From positions 64,001 to 128,000 of the IMG/VR virus record IMGVR_UViG_3300033463_000027: a DNA stretch of 64,000 nucleotides, one strand, 5' to 3'. Shown here one piece after another: positions 3,200 through 26,075 of this stretch. Below the pieces are notes generated by a model that saw only the letters and a program-made list of their open reading frames with translations, searched no databases and was not told where the DNA came from. Source of the DNA: a virus. Its lineage: Duplodnaviria; Caudoviricetes. Position 1 is the first letter of the stretch; each line of letters starts with the position of its first letter. Made by a program: the position numbers and the translations under genes.

Positions 3200-5050
3200 T
3201 ATATTATTTAATTTATAGTAGGTTGAAGGGGTGATGATAGGGGTCTGAGATAGGATTTTTGGGGTGTTTGATTAATTATACGTGTTTAATTGTTTCGGTG
3301 AGATTGCGGAAAGGGTTGATTTTCAAGGGTTAGAGAGGGGTTGGGTAGGTTTGATTTATCGTTTTTCGATAAAAAGAAAAAGTAGTAGGAGTGGTGATTC
3401 CTACTACTTGGTGGAGAGATAATTGGGTATTTTGTTTGTATTTACGTGGGGTTTACGTGTTTTTGGGGTAGGGGAGTACGTGGGGGTAAAGAGGTACGGA
3501 AGGTTTGGGAGCGGGGTGAGTTGATTTGGTGGTAACCTAACCACGCCTTGCGGGGTCGGGGTCAGGTCATGAACGTAAAGTCACCCCGGTCTCTGAGCGA
3601 GATCGTCCGGGTATAGTAGTTTGTGCGGTTCAAGTACGCGGGTTTATCCCGCGTTTAGAGCAATTGCAAAAATTCAATAATATCGTCGTTTGCGGCGTGT
3701 TTTGCCGTCGGCGGTGGGTGCTCTTTACATTTCGTTTTTTGCACAAAGTCGAAATGTCAAGGCAAATTAACCCTCATGCAAGCCGAACAAATCAGCGGTT
3801 GACTTTTCAGGGGCTTGAATTTGTAGCAGAATAACAGGTGTTATAGCGTGATATCATTTTGATATCATTTTGATATCGGTATACGTTACGCCTAAACAAA
3901 TATGTTTAGTCTACATTTTCTCCACTCTCGGTGTATAAAATGCAGATTTACAATCACTTACAATTACTTACAATTTGTTTGACAAAATACAAATATCCTC
4001 GATCACTTCCGCAAATTACTAAACAAATATGTTTAAGTTATCAATACTAAACAAATATGTTTAGTATAACTATCATTATTATATTTATTACAAATTGGTT
4101 ACAATATATTACAATATGGTTACAATAATTACAAATCAATTACAATACTAATTATTACAAAACAGTTACAAATAGTTACAAACTAATTACAAATATTACA
4201 ATAAAGTATCAACAAAACTTTCAACACTATTCAACAAACTTTCAACAAAAATAAGTTTACCATAAAAACAAATACATAAAATATCGGTCAAATAAATCAA
4301 TCTGATTTTCTTCGATCGTATAACTATACGATGCACATATACAAATCAGCTACAAATCACCTATACAATATATAGTATATATCAATACAAAAAAGCATAA
4401 AAGACACTACATCTTGTATGCTAACATATTATCATATACAATTATATTATGATTTACACAAAAAATCATTCCGCTATATACAAAAATATATACCTATATG
4501 CAATTATTTCATTACATTCATTTAACTATTAACATCTTATTCACATTCACCAATACCGCATATTATATGCAATATACACAACTTTCAACAATTAAATTTA
4601 TGCACATTTACTTTAATTATCAATCACATACATATTAATAATCTATTCATAAATTGGTGATCTGCCTGAGCAGGCATTATATATAAATCATATATAATAT
4701 AAATCATAACAAATATAAATCAACTATAATCAAATCTGCAAATATTACAAATCAAACATAATATGAATTATACAATATCCGATATATACATAACAAACAT
4801 CAATCATTTTACAAGTAAATTACAATTAAGCTGCGCATTATCAATATTTATTAATTGATAAATATTGCGTTATGTCAAACTATTTGTAAATAACTGTAAA
4901 TGATCTTGGTGCCTGAGCAGGCACTTTATATATATTTTAAACATATTATACTTTAAATATAACTATCCTGATCTCCGATACCTTCCCCCGAAAAATCATA
5001 TATAACACACTTTATCAAACTGTAAGCGATTTAAGGCGGGTTTGTATGTG
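3200..5050. other. Large non-coding region with strand-composition switch; candidate genome terminus/packaging region or origin
   Basis: G/T-rich about 3200-3560, GC-rich hairpins about 3550-3760, A/C-rich about 3900-5000 with many TTACAA repeats. Gene orientation diverges around it. Confidence 0.5.
3892..4064. repeat. Three palindromic CTAAACA-aata-TGTTTAR boxes
   Basis: Copies at about 3892, 4019 and 4047. Confidence 0.75.
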
Positions 5051-21657: not shown

Positions 21658-21945
21658 GTCAATAACTCACTGCTTATAGAAGCAGGAGCTTGTAAATGCT
21701 CAAATTGACTACCCTAAGTTCTTCAAGAACTACGTTATGCAAGAATTGTATAAGTTCTTTTATACTAAATAGTTACCCGTGAGCGTTATGCCTAACTTGC
21801 GGCTCTAAGGCAAATGGTTAAATAGTTCTGTGGAGTAGGAACAGTGCTGTTCGCAGTAAAACCTTGCAATAACATTGGGGAAGGCATTTAACAGCTTTGT
21901 ATGTGCTGTCTTACAGAGTAGAACATACAATTTGACTGAAAGGAG
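21658..21945 (+). ncRNA. IscB omegaRNA scaffold
   Basis: About 290 nt structured leader (GTCAA..TTGAC stem, CTACGTT, AACATTGG.GAAGG) upstream of iscB. Confidence 0.8.
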
Positions 21946-23237
21946 TGTTTTTTGGTGGTATATGTGATAAACAAAAACGGACAGCCGCTTATGCCAACCG
22001 AGAGACACGGTAAAGTGAGACGATTGCTTAAAATAGGAAAGGCTAAAGTAATCAAACGCTGTCCGTTTACTATTCAGCTTCTTTATGCTACGACTGATTT
22101 TGTACAAGAAGTCACTTTGGGAGTAGATAGTGGGAGTAAGCATATTGGAGTATCAGCGACAACAAAAGACAAAGTTTTGTATGAAGCTGATATAGAGCTT
22201 AGAAACGATATTGTCAAGCTGTTATCTGCAAGAAGAGAGGCAAGACGTACAAGGCGCAATAGAAAAACTCGTTACAGACAGGCTCGGTTTAACAACCGCA
22301 GTAAGCCCGATGGTTGGCTTGCCCCGTCAGTGCAACACAAGGTCGATGCTCATTTGACTGTCGTTCGTAAAGTGTATGAGATTCTTCCAATTGCAAAAAT
22401 CATAGTCGAGGTTGCTTCTTTTGATATTCAGAAAATCAAAAATCCATATATTAAGGGAGAAGAATATCAGCAAGGTGAACAGCTTGATTTCTGGAACGTA
22501 AGAGAGTATGTGCTTTTCAGAGATAGTCATGTGTGTCAGTGTTGCAAGGGCAAATCAAAAGATAATATTCTCAATGTACATCACATAGAATCACGGCAGA
22601 CAGGCGGGGATGCTCCCAATAACCTTATCACTCTCTGCGAGACCTGCCATTTAGGGTATCATAAAGGGACTGTGAAACTTCCAAAGACCATAAAGCGGGG
22701 GATGTCTTTTAGAGATGCAGCTTTCATGGGAATAATGCGATGGGCGTTTTACAATAAACTTAAATATATATATCCGAACGTTAATCTGACTTACGGATAT
22801 ATCACCAAAAACGCCCGTATTAAAAACACTCTTTCCAAAAGCCACTTTACAGATGCAAGGTGCATAAGCGGAAATCCGAAAGCTGTATCCGATGATGTAG
22901 TTTTCTATCAGAAAAAAGCCAGATGTCATAACAGACAGATACATAAATACAACATACTCAAGGGCGGGTTGAAAAAGAAAAACCAAGCACCGTATGAAAT
23001 GTTCGGTTTTAGGTTGTTTGACAGGGTAAAGTATCTTGGAAAAGAGTACTTTATCTTTGGTAGGAGAGCATCAGGATATTTTGATATAAGAGACTTACAA
23101 GGAAATAAGGTTAACAAAGGGAGTATTTCCTATAAAAAGTTGACCTTTATCGAACGGGCTAAAACTTATTTAACTGAAAGGAGGAAGGAGCATTCCTCCC
23201 CGACTTTTGAAGTTGGGGTATCCTGCTCCTATTTTAG
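21658..23237 (+). mobile_element. IS200/IS605-family IscB element
   Basis: Begins GTCAATAAC, ends in a CCCCGACTT/AAGTTGGGG hairpin. Flanks rejoin as AGAGTGC|ATGAAC. Confidence 0.8.
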
Positions 23238-23241
23238 ATGA
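21952..23241 (+). CDS. iscB: RNA-guided endonuclease IscB
   Basis: PLMP N-terminus, RuvC-I GVDSG, Arg-rich bridge helix, RuvC-II VEVA, HNH (HHI..GG..NLITLC..CH), RuvC-III HFTDA. Confidence 0.93.
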   Translation: MVVYVINKNGQPLMPTERHGKVRRLLKIGKAKVIKRCPFTIQLLYATTDFVQEVTLGVDSGSKHIGVSATTKDKVLYEADIELRNDIVKLLSARREARRTRRNRKTRYRQARFNNRSKPDGWLAPSVQHKVDAHLTVVRKVYEILPIAKIIVEVASFDIQKIKNPYIKGEEYQQGEQLDFWNVREYVLFRDSHVCQCCKGKSKDNILNVHHIESRQTGGDAPNNLITLCETCHLGYHKGTVKLPKTIKRGMSFRDAAFMGIMRWAFYNKLKYIYPNVNLTYGYITKNARIKNTLSKSHFTDARCISGNPKAVSDDVVFYQKKARCHNRQIHKYNILKGGLKKKNQAPYEMFGFRLFDRVKYLGKEYFIFGRRASGYFDIRDLQGNKVNKGSISYKKLTFIERAKTYLTERRKEHSSPTFEVGVSCSYFR

Positions 23242-23331
23242 ACTTAAAGTGATTACCATATAGTAAACGTGCGTATTATAGCGGTTCAGCGGAGTTATAA
23301 ATCCGCGCATTGTCTTGAAAGGAGTATAAAT

Positions 23332-24297
23332 ATGGATAACACAGCAAGAAAGCTAACTATCAGCGGAAACAACATTGATATTTCCGTAGTCAAGTCCAAG
23401 AAAAAGGACAGAATACAATCTAAGATTGTAACCGAGGACGAGTTCGCGGAGATTTATCGCTCTGCTGATGCGATAACTTCTGCAAAGGACATAGAAAATA
23501 TGTGTCTTACGCTCTATAAAAGGGGTTATGTAGATAGCATGGTTCTCTTTATCGTTGGAACCAATATTGGCTATCGTCCTGTCGATTTACAAGCGTGGAG
23601 ATGGGAGCAGATTACCGATGAAAACGGAAACATTCTTCGGAGATTTGCTATGAACGAACACAAGACAAGCAAGATGACAGTAGTTAATTTCAATGAGACT
23701 GTTGTTAAACTTCTTACATGGTATAGGGATTATAAAATGTCTCAACCCAAGTTTATGTGGGAGAATTATGTTTTTTCTGTAAGCATAAAAAATGCGGCAA
23801 GAAGTTATGTGTGGTATGATAAAGAAAACGATATTATCTATCACCAAGATAGGAAACATAAACAGTTGGGGCTTGTATATTATCATGAGGGCAAAAATAT
23901 TATTACTTGTCCTGCGTGTGAAGTTATCGGAAACGAGAAGTATCTTAAATTGCAAAAGCCCATTACGACTGAAACTGCCAGTAACAATTTTATTGAAGCT
24001 GCGGAGAAATGCGGAATTGAGGGACATTTTTCGTCATATACAATGCGGCAAACGTTCAGCTTTTGGTTTAGAAAAACCTTAAAAGAGGACGAAACTCTTG
24101 CAAATGTAGCTGATGAATACTTCTCGACCATGCTGCTGAGTGGATATTTTCAGCATAGCAGTTTAAAGGTCACGCAAAAACACTATATGCGAGATCAAGT
24201 TGCGTTATTCAGACAGATTGTAAACAAGATGAACCTTGCTAAAGATTTTGTGGATTGTCTGGTCGAAAAGGATAATGCAGTACAGATGTGTTTATAA
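23332..24297 (+). CDS. Tyrosine recombinase (YopP/XerC-like)
   Basis: GYRPVDL (R), HKTSK (K), SYTMRQTF (HxxR with H>Y), QHSS (H), QKHY (Y). Confidence 0.8.
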   Translation: MDNTARKLTISGNNIDISVVKSKKKDRIQSKIVTEDEFAEIYRSADAITSAKDIENMCLTLYKRGYVDSMVLFIVGTNIGYRPVDLQAWRWEQITDENGNILRRFAMNEHKTSKMTVVNFNETVVKLLTWYRDYKMSQPKFMWENYVFSVSIKNAARSYVWYDKENDIIYHQDRKHKQLGLVYYHEGKNIITCPACEVIGNEKYLKLQKPITTETASNNFIEAAEKCGIEGHFSSYTMRQTFSFWFRKTLKEDETLANVADEYFSTMLLSGYFQHSSLKVTQKHYMRDQVALFRQIVNKMNLAKDFVDCLVEKDNAVQMCL

Positions 24298-24358
24298 TAA
24301 GGTAGTTACCGAGGAAACTCGGAAAAATATATTAACTAAATTTTAGGAGGAATTTTTT

Positions 24359-24940
24359 ATGAAAACTTTAAAGGTTACTTGGAAAGGCACAAAGACTCTG
24401 ATTATGCACTCTTGCCAGTGCGTTAATCCCCTTAATCCGATTCAAAAGGAATTGAAAAAGTACACTTCAAAAAGAACCAAAACTGATGAAGATTTACAGA
24501 GAATTTCTGATCTTGAATGGGAAGCTGGGGCTTATTGGAAAGAAGGTATGGGACTTTATATCCCCGGAGAAAATGTGATAGCAACCATTATTAATGGTGC
24601 AAAACTCTTCAAGAAGGGTACTGATGTTCAAAAGTATGTTTCTGTTCCTAATGTGCATATTCCGTTTAATTACGGAGAAAATCTCACTAAGGAAGAACTG
24701 ATTGCTGATAAAGATTATCGTGATGTAAGACCTATGGTCGTTGGTAAGGCAAAGGTTATAAGAACAAGACCAAGATTCGATCAGTGGAATATTACTTTTA
24801 ACCTTGAATATGAAGAGGATAAGATTGACCGTGATGTTGTCATTCTTGCATTAGAAAATGCAGGAAAGTATGTGGGGCTTTGCGATAGTCGCAACTATGG
24901 CTATGGGCGATTTGTCGTAAAAGCAGAAGAGTTGGATTGA
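24359..24940 (+). CDS. Stand-alone Cas7/RAMP-like protein
   Basis: N-terminal KVTWKGTKTLIMH, LYIPGENVIATI (cf. RAMP IPGSSIKG) and C-terminal glycine-rich loop GLCDSRNYGYGRFVV. AGGAGG RBS. Confidence 0.75.
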   Translation: MKTLKVTWKGTKTLIMHSCQCVNPLNPIQKELKKYTSKRTKTDEDLQRISDLEWEAGAYWKEGMGLYIPGENVIATIINGAKLFKKGTDVQKYVSVPNVHIPFNYGENLTKEELIADKDYRDVRPMVVGKAKVIRTRPRFDQWNITFNLEYEEDKIDRDVVILALENAGKYVGLCDSRNYGYGRFVVKAEELD

Positions 24941-24945
24941 GATAG

Positions 24946-25378
24946 GGATTATATGTTTGGTTCTGTTCTGTTGTGTTTCGTTAGGTTCCGTTCAGTTCAG
25001 TTGCGCTAAGTTATGTATTGTAGGTTGTGTTTTGTTTCGTTAAGTCGAGTTTCGTTGTGTTGTGTTGCGTTAGGTTGGGTATTATAAGTTAAGCTCCGTT
25101 GCGTTGAGTTTAGTTGTGTTAAGTTCAGTTTGGTTGGGATAGGTATTATAAGTTAAGTTAAGATGTATTATGTTGTGTTTAGTCAGGTTGCGTTAAGCTA
25201 AGTTAAGTATTATAAGTTAGGTTCTGTTTCGTTGTATTGAGTTATGTTGGGGTTCGTTTGGTTCGGTTATGTTTGGTTGAGCTAAGTATTATAAGTTGCG
25301 CTATATTAAGTTATGTTGAGTTAGGTCAAGTTGCGTTGCGTTATGTTAAGTTGCGTTGGGTTAAGTCAAGCATTATAG
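24946..25378 (+). repeat. Array of six GTT-NN pentamer units separated by a 9-nt GTATTATAA repeat (putative guide-RNA array)
   Basis: Units 24955-25014 (12 pentamers), 25024-25078 (11), 25088-25142 (11), 25152-25206 (11), 25216-25285 (14), 25295-25369 (15). Delimiters at 24946, 25015, 25079, 25143, 25207, 25286 and 25370. Confidence 0.9.
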
Positions 25379-25413
25379 GCTTTGAAAAAAAATACCAAGA
25401 AAGGAAAATTATT

Positions 25414-25878
25414 ATGAATGAGTTAATCAACAATAAGACAATCGCGGAGGTTCTTGCGGAAGAAATTGATAAACTTCCCTATGAAACTGTAATCGAGCAT
25501 GGACAAATAGAGTCCATCATCGGAGTTCCGAGAGGTCTGAACAAGTATGGTTCTACTATTGCAAAAGCAAAGAAGTTACTTATAGAGAAGCGGAAACATA
25601 TTGAGAGTATACGGGGTGTTGGTTATCGGATAGTCGCGCCTGATAACGTGATAGATCGTTCACTTCATCACATTAAAAGAGGTTGTAATGAAATCAAAAA
25701 AGGGCAGGAAATCTTAGATCATGCACCTGTTAATGATATGAGTGTAGAGGGTCGTGAAGCCTATCGTAGAGTATATGACAGAGCTGTTATCCTTGATGCT
25801 GCTATGAAAGGCGCTGCCGTGGAGCTTAAAGAGCTTGCGGGTAAACGTCCTCATCCGTTTTTGTTTTGTAAGAAATGA
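25414..25878 (+). CDS. Winged-helix-like protein downstream of the RAMP array
   Basis: ATG after AAGGAA RBS; IESIRGVGYRIV wing motif. Confidence 0.7.
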   Translation: MNELINNKTIAEVLAEEIDKLPYETVIEHGQIESIIGVPRGLNKYGSTIAKAKKLLIEKRKHIESIRGVGYRIVAPDNVIDRSLHHIKRGCNEIKKGQEILDHAPVNDMSVEGREAYRRVYDRAVILDAAMKGAAVELKELAGKRPHPFLFCKK

Positions 25879-26075
25879 GGAATTGTTATGATAGTCTATA
25901 CTGTATTTAAAACTCGATGGAATCCCGATAGTAACTATGACGAAACTTTTCTTATAGACATATATTCCAACGAACAAACAGCTATGCAAGAGTGTATTAG
26001 TTATAATAGTAGTCATGATAACAGTGAAAGTTTTTTTGTTTTATGAAGATTATACTGTCAAGGAGGACTAAAAAA

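What the first reader, a model, noticed from the sequence alone, without database searches (positions are those of the whole stretch)
24359..25878. Candidate RNA-guided system: stand-alone Cas7/RAMP gene + GTT-NN pentamer array + winged-helix gene
Seen: 5 nt after the stop of a 193 aa gene, a 430-nt array begins with strict 5-nt periodicity. It has 74 pentamers, each a near-constant triplet (mostly GTT; variants GCT, GTC, GAT, ATT, GGT) plus a variable dinucleotide. These are grouped into six units of 12, 11, 11, 11, 14 and 15 pentamers by a 9-nt delimiter (GTATTATAA x4; GGATTATAT, GTATTGTAG and GCATTATAG as variants). The phase is never broken inside a unit, which is unlike a decaying microsatellite. 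Known: the protein has the IPG motif and C-terminal G-rich loop (GLCDSRNYGYGRF) of RAMP/Cas7 backbone proteins, which polymerise on guide RNA with a fixed nucleotide step. Inference: each unit is a guide RNA on which one subunit binds each GUU and presents the NN for non-contiguous target recognition. No cas1, cas2, nuclease or CRISPR repeat is present, which suggests silencing rather than cutting, probably against competing phages or mobile elements. The layout resembles what I recall as phage VIPR-type systems (GGY-NN repeats; recollection unverified), but here the scaffold is GTT and the array is multi-unit and delimited.
Basis: partly seen in the sequence, partly recalled or inferred. Interest (0 to 1): 0.97.

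Follow-up and report, generated by a model that had tools for sequence, protein, structure and literature searches.

The report
Phage VIPR system with GUU-repeat guides
This 139-kb gut-type phage carries a VIPR system, a CRISPR-related RNA-guided DNA-silencing system first described in 2026 preprints, and its six guide RNAs are built on GUU-NN repeats instead of the published GGY-NN, matched by a serine in the protein pocket that normally stacks on the second G.

Summary
Window 24946-25378 holds 74 in-phase pentamers (GTT in 59) in six units of 12, 11, 11, 11, 14 and 15, bounded by seven 9-nt delimiters.

The 193-aa protein is a Vipr. It matches the solved SUSP1 Vipr (PDB 36pp) over its full length at E 5e-28, and its model matches Cmr4, Csm3 and type VII Cas7. 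The downstream gene is a vap1 homolog.

Differences from the characterised type II system:
- The scaffold is GUU rather than GGY.
- The G2-stacking Trp178 of SUSP1 is Ser177 here.
- There is no roughly 40-nt pseudoknot tail, only a 9-nt delimiter whose second base is also never G.
- The array sits between vipr and vap.

Ser at this position went with a non-G second repeat base in every lineage sampled, including scattered distant ones.

In relatives, two guides match conserved vipr codons only under the published read-2-skip-1 rule (31/34 and 25/28). One of them matches this phage's vipr at 29/34. Targets of this phage's own six guides were not found.

This scan had already noted a GUU VIPR on another genome, so this is a new variant of a known kind.

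The parts
24359..24940 (+). vipr gene: 193-aa minimal RAMP (Cas7-like) protein. H17, K33, E71, R137, D176 and R178 match the SUSP1 RNA- and DNA-contact residues. Ser177 replaces the G2-stacking Trp178.
   Evidence: PDB 36pp_D SUSP1 Vipr at E 4.8e-28; phrog_4652 at E 4e-49; model pLDDT 93 with Foldseek hits to Cmr4, Csm3 and type VII Cas7; residue mapping.
24946..24954 (+). Leading 9-nt delimiter (GGATTATAT variant).
24955..25023 (+). vrRNA unit 1: 12 GTT-NN pentamers (24955-25014) plus a 9-nt delimiter (25015-25023).
25024..25087 (+). vrRNA unit 2: 11 pentamers plus delimiter.
25088..25151 (+). vrRNA unit 3: 11 pentamers plus delimiter.
25152..25215 (+). vrRNA unit 4: 11 pentamers plus delimiter.
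25216..25294 (+). vrRNA unit 5: 14 pentamers plus delimiter.
25295..25378 (+). vrRNA unit 6: 15 pentamers plus the closing delimiter (GCATTATAG).
   Evidence: A 24-nt block of this unit is the only array sequence shared with the locus whose Vipr is 95% identical.
25414..25878 (+). vap1-like accessory gene: 154 aa, an N-terminal winged-helix-like domain followed by a long helical hairpin.
   Evidence: hhalign to SUSP1 vap1 at 95% probability, E 4e-8; phrog_5926; model pLDDT 88; only weak Foldseek hits, all to wHTH DNA-binding domains; present after the array in 35 of 48 related loci.
24398..24447 (-). Predicted target site inside this phage's own vipr (codons 14-30). It is matched by the first vrRNA of a Dorea-MAG prophage (L058) under the 1-nt-skip rule, 29 of 34 guide bases, with the skipped base at codon position 3.

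Best explanation
This is a phage-borne VIPR system consisting of vipr, a block of six vrRNA genes and a vap1-like gene.

Shown or directly read:
- The protein is a Vipr homolog.
- The array has the 3-fixed plus 2-variable pentamer grammar, with 11-15 units per guide.
- The cassette is conserved as a unit in many Lachnospiraceae/Clostridia phages and prophages.
- In this clade the fixed triplet is G, then non-G (mostly U), then U.

Inferred by homology to the SUSP1 structures:
- The block is transcribed with vipr and cut at or near the 9-nt delimiters into RNAs of 64-84 nt.
- One Vipr protomer binds each pentamer. H17 and D176 read G1. The pocket that holds G2 in SUSP1 (R138 plus stacking W178) here has R137 plus Ser177 and takes U. 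U3 sits in the pyrimidine pocket (E71, R178).
- N4 and N5 are exposed and pair with two target bases. Every third target base is skipped.
- The filament blocks transcription, because the cassette has no nuclease. The winged-helix Vap1-like protein assists.

The likely biological role is silencing of competing phages or other mobile elements. The targets of this phage's six guides are unknown.
For: - Identity: Vipr at E 4.8e-28 to PDB 36pp; Cas7-family fold; vap1 homology.
- Phage context: DNA polymerase, helicases and RecJ are present, and the genome is a 139.5-kb virus record with a 126-bp repeat of its first bases near its end.
- Conserved cassette: vipr in 48 of 48 and vap in 35 of 48 related loci; flanking genes in 0 of 48. 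Arrays lie directly downstream.
- Scaffold and protein co-variation: all 23 Ser-type loci show T-dominant, G-poor position 2, whereas the Y, M, C, Q and K types show G.
- Distant Ser-type Viprs at 35-43% identity, scattered on a tree of 151 representatives (at least 6 changes), also have non-G at position 2 (GCC, GTC, GAC, GTT). W and Y neighbours have GGY.
- The second base of the delimiter covaries too: C27, T8, A2, G0 in 37 Ser-clade junctions, against G in 13 of 13 junctions in GGY relatives.
- Function of the code in this clade: the L058 guide matches 31/34 and the L057 guide 25/28 to conserved vipr codons only with skip 1. The skipped base falls at the wobble position. The guides' own vipr genes escape through synonymous codons. 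Unit-order shuffles reach at most 25 and 22.
- Guide turnover: a locus with a 95% identical Vipr shares only 24 nt of array.
- The array RNA is less structured than shuffles, z = +1.95.
- No self-target at or above 80% in the phage genome, as the published work reports for other VIPRs.
Against: - There are no expression, processing or binding data for this locus.
- No target was found for any of the six guides.
- There is no recognisable promoter or terminator around the array.
- The Ser rule runs one way only. Non-Ser residues (F in L051, E in L077) also occur with non-G scaffolds.
- Within the close clade the association is one or two evolutionary events.
- The structural role assigned to Ser177 is transferred from SUSP1 by alignment, not modelled with RNA.
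Confidence: 0.9

Rival explanations
1. The cassette is a working VIPR, but its guides are aimed at host genes such as defence, restriction or regulatory genes, not at rival phages or satellites.
For: No rival-phage target was found for the six guides. Earlier notes of this scan report VIPR guides that spell host restriction or methylase motifs in other genomes (unchecked here).
Against: Guide 5 (up to 3 mismatches) found nothing in 405 genomes, and guide 6 found nothing in 151 genomes of the Lachnospiraceae-type family sample. The only decoded targets in this clade are vipr genes of other phages.
Confidence: 0.15
2. The array is a decaying, non-functional relic of a GGY array that drifted towards T in an AT-rich genome.
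For: The genome has 37% G+C. Two relatives have in-frame stops in vipr (L005/L018 and L012/L029).
Against: Strict phase holds over 74 units. G1 is kept in 95% and T3 in 95% of called units, while only position 2 changed. The same scaffold is conserved across 23 loci with complete guide turnover. The delimiter and the G-loop changed in step. Relatives' guides still spell vipr codons at 89-91%. GC-rich Ser-type lineages use GCC rather than GGC.
Confidence: 0.03
3. The RNA is made from the opposite strand (NN-AAC units), or it uses a different pairing register, for example three paired bases per unit.
For: Target matching cannot tell the strands apart. Other notes of this scan report minus-strand or 3-base readings in other VIPR-like arrays.
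Against: The array is co-oriented with vipr and vap in all loci. In L009-L012 a hairpin plus T-run follows the array on the + strand. G1 and Y3 line up with GGY and with conserved G1 and Y3 ligands. In the decoded targets the skipped base is not constant, so U3 is not paired. Skip 0, 2 and 3 give no strong hits.
Confidence: 0.04

Closest known systems
Type II VIPR of Escherichia phage SUSP1 and the Pseudomonas fulva prophage (bioRxiv 10.64898/2026.04.26.720920, .720927; 10.64898/2026.10.15.759431)
   Same: - Homologous Vipr (32% identity, E 5e-28) and homologous vap1.
- Guides made of tandem pentamers with three fixed and two hypervariable bases, 9-16 units each.
- Phage-borne, with no nuclease in the cassette.
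- Read-2-skip-1 matching with the skipped base at the wobble position, seen in this clade's relatives.
- Guides aimed at rivals' vipr genes with lower self-match.
   Different: - The fixed triplet is GUU (G, non-G, U in the clade), not GGY.
- Trp178 is replaced by Ser177.
- There is no 40-60-nt pseudoknot tail, only a 9-nt delimiter plus an AA-biased last unit.
- All six guides form one uninterrupted block between vipr and vap. In SUSP1 the order is vrRNA1, vipr, vap1, then three spaced vrRNAs.
- The hosts are gut Bacillota rather than Enterobacteria or Pseudomonas.
VIPR-like arrays with non-canonical repeats (bioRxiv 10.64898/2026.10.21.760802, 21 clusters)
   Same: A Vipr-like fold next to period-5 arrays whose fixed triplet is not GGY.
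   Different: The text names GAC, CAC, WGT and TGH cores. GTT is not named and the figure could not be read. No protein determinant is discussed in the text I could read.
Staggered vrRNA arrays (fig. S18 of 10.64898/2026.04.26.720920)
   Same: [quoted passage not shown] That fits a block with only 9 nt between guides.
   Different: Only the legend is available. Whether the figure shows this layout or this clade cannot be checked.
Class 1 CRISPR backbone proteins (Cas7 family: Csm3, Cmr4, type VII Cas7)
   Same: RRM core, G-rich loop and thumb; the same fold by Foldseek; one subunit per fixed step along the guide.
   Different: No CRISPR repeats, cas1, cas2 or other cas genes in the cassette. 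The step is 5 nt with three bases sequestered, not 6 nt with one base flipped. The guides are genome-encoded rather than acquired spacers.

Membership tests
VIPR | Vipr protein: a minimal RAMP homologous to the characterised Viprs | tested here: met
   PDB 36pp SUSP1 Vipr at E 4.8e-28, residues 1-188 of 193; tblastn to phiSUSP1 at 32% identity; Cas7-family fold.
VIPR | vrRNAs made of tandem pentamers with three conserved and two hypervariable bases, about 9-16 units each | tested here: met
   Six units of 11-15 pentamers; positions 1-3 conserved and 4-5 variable; NN content replaced between near-identical loci.
VIPR | The conserved triplet is GGY | tested here: not met
   GTT in 59 of 74 units and GGT in 1 of 74. 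The papers allow 'a related consensus' and list NNNGG, YNNNG and NNNNG.
VIPR type II | An invariant structured 3' tail (pseudoknot, about 40 nt) after each repeat tract | tested here: not met
   Only 9 nt separate the units. No inverted repeats occur in 24200-26000. The array is less structured than shuffles. The SUSP1 tails are visible for comparison.
VIPR type II | vap1 accessory gene (predicted DNA binder) next to vipr | tested here: met
   hhalign at 95% probability, E 4e-8, to the SUSP1 gene downstream of vipr; winged-helix-like N-terminal domain.
VIPR | Viral or proviral location; a minimal locus without a CRISPR array or cas genes | tested here: met
   Virus record with phage replication genes. 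Only vipr and vap are conserved around the array. The nearby IscB has its own HEARO RNA and is not conserved with the cassette.
VIPR | Targets recognised by NN pairing with one skipped target base per unit | tested here: inconclusive
   Met for two guides of clade relatives (31/34 and 25/28, skip 1 only). No target was found for this phage's own six guides.
VIPR | vrRNAs are expressed and co-purify with Vipr, and binding represses transcription | not testable with these tools
CRISPR-Cas class 1 | CRISPR repeat-spacer array plus cas gene set (Cas5, Cas6, large subunit, Cas1-Cas2) | tested here: not met
   Neighbouring ORFs have no cas families in Pfam, PHROGs or PADLOC. The repeat period is 5 nt rather than 60-79 nt.

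The most novel reading that the evidence does not exclude
Replacing the aromatic G-loop residue with serine is a recurrent switch, arising at least five times, that re-specifies the Vipr scaffold pocket from G to non-G. The scaffold becomes GUU in AT-rich phages and GCC or GTC in GC-rich ones. The result is mutually orthogonal VIPR 'dialects' whose proteins cannot be loaded or hijacked by rivals' solo or decoy vrRNAs. The tail-less, 9-nt-delimited array would then be matured by a mechanism different from that of the tailed type II RNAs.
Probability: 0.3. Interest if true: 0.7.

Novelty: new variant of a known kind. Interest (0 to 1): 0.5.

Why it matters
VIPR is a months-old discovery whose defining rule is a GGY scaffold read by two guanine pockets. 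This locus and its large gut-phage clade show that the second pocket can be re-specified, to GUU here and to GCC or GTC in GC-rich lineages. The re-specification comes with one identifiable residue change (Trp/Tyr to Ser), and the read-2-skip-1 targeting code is kept.

If confirmed, this would give:
- a sequence predictor of scaffold type;
- natural orthogonal Vipr/vrRNA pairs for multiplexed programmable silencing;
- a compact guide format with no 40-nt tail.

It also extends the 'VIPR against VIPR' conflict, so far shown in coliphages, to phages and prophages of human and animal gut Lachnospiraceae. This phage's own vipr is a predicted target in that conflict.

Tried and rejected
Target searches for this phage's six guides:
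- Own genome, skip 0-3: best match 61-77% of guide bases.
- 48 related loci: below 78%.
- Exact 10-unit sub-patterns in viral contigs: guide 5 gave 0 and guide 1 gave 0.
- Guide 6 gave one sequence in three related contigs. It extends to only 23/30 (77%) and is consistent with chance, so I rejected it.
- Metagenome contigs: guides 5 and 2 gave 0.
- Genomes of the family of a Lachnospiraceae host, up to 3 mismatches: guide 5 in 405 genomes and guide 6 in 151 genomes, both 0.
- These are 'not found in what was searched', not absence. The collection scans allow no mismatches.

Other dead ends:
- Megablast of the locus against GenBank phages found no match. No cultured phage has a Vipr above 40% identity to this one.
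- Pfam and PADLOC gave nothing for vipr or vap.
- A PDB sequence search with vap gave nothing.
- The promoter and terminator scan gave nothing on the + strand within the array, so the idea that each delimiter is a -10 box has no support.

Corrections to my own work:
- The coordinates printed were wrong because of a concatenation offset error in my script. They were recomputed per sequence, and only those are used.
- My first unit caller was too loose and was replaced.
- The caller requires G at position 1 and Y at position 3, so only the position-2 statistics are unbiased.

Full report
**1. What is there**

The 193-aa ORF runs 24359-24940 on the + strand and has a good ribosome-binding site. 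Five bases after its stop there is a 433-nt tract (24946-25378). Parsed mechanically, the tract is seven 9-nt delimiters enclosing six in-phase runs of 12, 11, 11, 11, 14 and 15 pentamers.
- The delimiters are GGATTATAT, GTATTGTAG, GTATTATAA x4 and GCATTATAG.
- The 74 units carry GTT 59, GCT 5, GTC 4, ATT 3, GAT 2 and GGT 1 at positions 1-3, and 15 different dinucleotides at positions 4-5.
- A period-5 information scan of the whole 139,524-bp genome finds only this tract, plus one marginal AT-rich 54-mer.
- The downstream gene starts at ATG 25414 (154 aa). The listed TTG ORF from 25237 is an artefact that reads into the array.

**2. Identity of the protein**

- A sequence search of the PDB gives one strong hit: chain 36pp_D, 'SUSP1 Vipr protein', E 4.8e-28, aligned over 1-188 of 193 residues.
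- tblastn finds phiSUSP1 and about 130 other GenBank phages at 27-40% identity.
- The AlphaFold model (33-sequence alignment, pLDDT 93) matches Cmr4, type VII Cas7 and Csm3 at Foldseek E 3e-6 to 1e-4.
- Pfam and PADLOC have no model for it; PHROGs has phrog_4652, function unknown.
- A profile search of 1.84 billion representatives finds 5,093 clusters at E up to 1e-3, so the family is very large.

**3. What VIPR is (from the papers)**

- The preprint 10.64898/2026.04.26.720920 defines Viral Interference Programmable Repeat systems. They comprise a minimal RAMP (Vipr), an accessory gene (vap) and vrRNAs of 9-16 YNNGG repeats followed by an invariant tail. The systems are mostly in phages and prophages.
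- The NN bases pair with double-stranded DNA while one target base per unit is skipped, and binding represses transcription.
- The structural preprint .720927 shows one protomer per repeat. G1 is read by H17 and D177. G2 sits between R138 and stacking W178. Y3 sits in a pocket of E71, M72, R179, C173 and T175. K33 contacts the target backbone.
- The preprint 10.64898/2026.10.15.759431 shows phage-satellite conflict and guides aimed at rivals' vipr genes.
- A fourth preprint (10.64898/2026.10.21.760802) reports 21 clusters with non-GGY cores and names GAC, CAC, WGT and TGH.
- None of the texts mentions GUU or GTT. The figures and tables were not available.

**4. The cassette and its relatives**

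- The genome is a virus record with 37% G+C. It has a 126-bp repeat of its first bases near its end, and it carries DNA polymerase, helicase and RecJ genes.
- Sixty-one related loci were fetched from viral contigs and from Lachnospiraceae, Dorea and Clostridia genomes and MAGs.
- vipr is followed directly by a period-5 array and then by a homolog of the 154-aa gene. vap is detected in 35 of 48 loci, while none of this phage's flanking genes is found in any of them.
- The 154-aa protein is a homolog of the gene after vipr in SUSP1, which is vap1 (BLASTP E 1e-4; hhalign 95%, E 4e-8).
- Its model (pLDDT 88) has an H-S-H-H-S-S winged-helix-like domain followed by a long helical hairpin. Foldseek hits are weak (E at least 0.02), but all are winged-helix DNA-binding domains.

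**5. The GUU scaffold and its protein correlate**

- Aligned to SUSP1, this protein keeps H17, K33, E71, R137 (SUSP1 R138), D176 (D177) and R178 (R179). It has Ser177 where SUSP1 has Trp178, and Asn72 where SUSP1 has Met72.
- In the GenBank SUSP1 sequence, position 175 is Val, not the Thr cited in the paper.
- Across the fetched loci, every protein with the G-loop motif D-S-R has an array whose second repeat base is mostly T (38-86%) and rarely G (4-31%).
- Proteins with Y, M, C, Q or K at that position have G there (52-97%). This window has T at 86%.
- On a maximum-likelihood tree the close Ser group needs only one or two changes, so within the clade this is essentially one event.
- I therefore sampled further. 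Among the 150 best 50%-identity representatives the position is Y, W or F in about 77%, and Ser in six.
- The Ser rows are scattered on a FastTree, which needs at least six changes. This is a quick tree with deep, long branches, so the count is approximate.
- Contigs for the five distant Ser proteins all show non-G at position 2: GNT/GTT in L069, GCC/GTC in L070, GCC/GAC in L071, GCC in L072 and GTC/GCC in L073. G makes up 0-11% of called units.
- A Tyr neighbour (L075) has G in 26 of 27 units, a short fragment from a Trp neighbour (L074) reads GGC, and SUSP1 has G in 27 of 35.
- The rule is one-directional. A Glu neighbour (L077) and a Phe protein (L051) also have non-G scaffolds.
- A second signal comes from the delimiter. 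It begins like a repeat unit, and its second base is C27, T8, A2, G0 in 37 Ser-clade junctions, but G in 13 of 13 junctions of GGY relatives that share the same 9-nt layout.
- The unit before the delimiter is biased to GTT-AA, so it is probably part of a constant 3' handle.

**6. Does the code work with this scaffold?**

- I took 85 distinct guides of at least 10 units from Ser-clade loci and scored them against 48 loci plus this genome with 0-3 skipped bases.
- Only skip 1 gave strong hits.
- The first guide of L058, a prophage in a Dorea MAG, has 17 units. It matches the antisense strand of vipr codons 14-30 at 31/34 in L017, 30/34 in L055 and L057, and 29/34 in this phage (window 24398-24447).
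- The first guide of L057 (14 units) matches vipr codons 173-186, the G-loop, at 25/28 in three loci.
- In every case the skipped base is codon position 3.
- The guides match their own vipr genes less well (23/34 and 20/28). L057 escapes by using TCT-CGC where its targets have AGC-AGA.
- Three hundred unit-order shuffles reach at most 25 and 22. The other skip rules reach at most 24 and 20.
- Of 104 guides of at least 11 units from all clades, only these two hit vipr (31 sites), and only with skip 1.
- The skipped bases are not constant, so U3 is not paired.
- This reproduces, in gut Bacillota phages and with a G-N-U scaffold, the anti-VIPR targeting reported for SUSP1-family phages.

**7. Other properties**

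- A locus whose Vipr is 95% identical (L066) has four guides. It shares only one 24-nt block with this array, while the flanks and delimiters are conserved. Guides therefore turn over fast.
- The array RNA folds worse than shuffled versions (z = +1.95) and has no inverted repeats. This fits a guide held single-stranded by protein.
- In L009-L012 a hairpin plus T-run follows the array on the + strand, which supports + strand transcription.

**8. What remains open**

- No target was found for this phage's own guides in its genome, in the related loci, in exact scans of viral and metagenome collections, or in 405 and 151 host-family genomes with up to three mismatches.
- Expression, the processing enzyme and the cleavage point within the delimiter are unknown.
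- The role assigned to Ser177 is transferred by alignment.
- I could not determine which of the seven published types this clade was assigned to, or whether its layout is the 'staggered array' of fig. S18.

**9. Verdict**

The system belongs to a known kind (VIPR, closest to type II by Vipr and vap1). It departs from that type in the fixed triplet, the G-loop residue, the missing tail and the array position. This scan had already recorded a GUU-type VIPR on another genome, and a preprint reports non-canonical cores in general. I therefore class it as a new variant of a known kind, of moderate interest.

Noticed in passing
window 21658-23241: An IscB element sits two genes upstream of vipr. It consists of a HEARO/omega RNA (Rfam RF02033, 108.6 bits, E 2e-22, 21658-21892 +) followed by a 429-aa RRXRR plus HNH protein (21952-23241). 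It is not found next to vipr in any of the 48 related loci.
   Followed up: partly
window 23269-24297: A tyrosine-recombinase-like gene (Phage_integrase E 2e-6; phrog_216 integrase E 2e-21) lies between IscB and vipr. A similar ORF6N, integrase, vipr order is seen in locus L067, whose Vipr is 79% identical.
   Followed up: no
L005/L018 (vipr codon 18) and L012/L029 (vipr codon 44): Two related viral contigs have an in-frame stop inside vipr but keep long, well-formed GTT arrays and vap. They could be vipr-null phages that keep guides, like the solo-vrRNA phages of preprint 759431, or they could be sequencing errors.
   Followed up: no
L075:140-500: In a distant GGY-type VIPR locus, each repeat tract is followed by a tail containing a tRNA T-arm-like motif (GGTTCGAWTCC). 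This suggests maturation by tRNA-processing enzymes.
   Followed up: no
L073:1357-2001 and 3391-3530: In a GC-rich Ser-type VIPR locus, every GYC-NN tract ends in a strong GC hairpin (a terminator-like tail). Guides lie on both sides of vipr and its neighbouring gene.
   Followed up: no
L015 (=L002) 3255-3650: In one relative a transposase-like ORF sits directly after a truncated first guide, and the rest of the array follows about 1 kb further on. This looks like an insertion sequence landed in the array.
   Followed up: no
L076:663-936: A Vipr with Ala at the Ser177/Trp178 position has units reading xGT-NN (GGT, AGT, TGT). Position 1 rather than position 2 is relaxed, which is reminiscent of the 'WGT' core named in preprint 760802.
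   Followed up: no
G000 1-126 and 139377-139502 (outside the window): The first 126 bases of the genome recur near its end. This is consistent with a complete, terminally redundant or circularly assembled phage genome of about 139.4 kb.
   Followed up: partly
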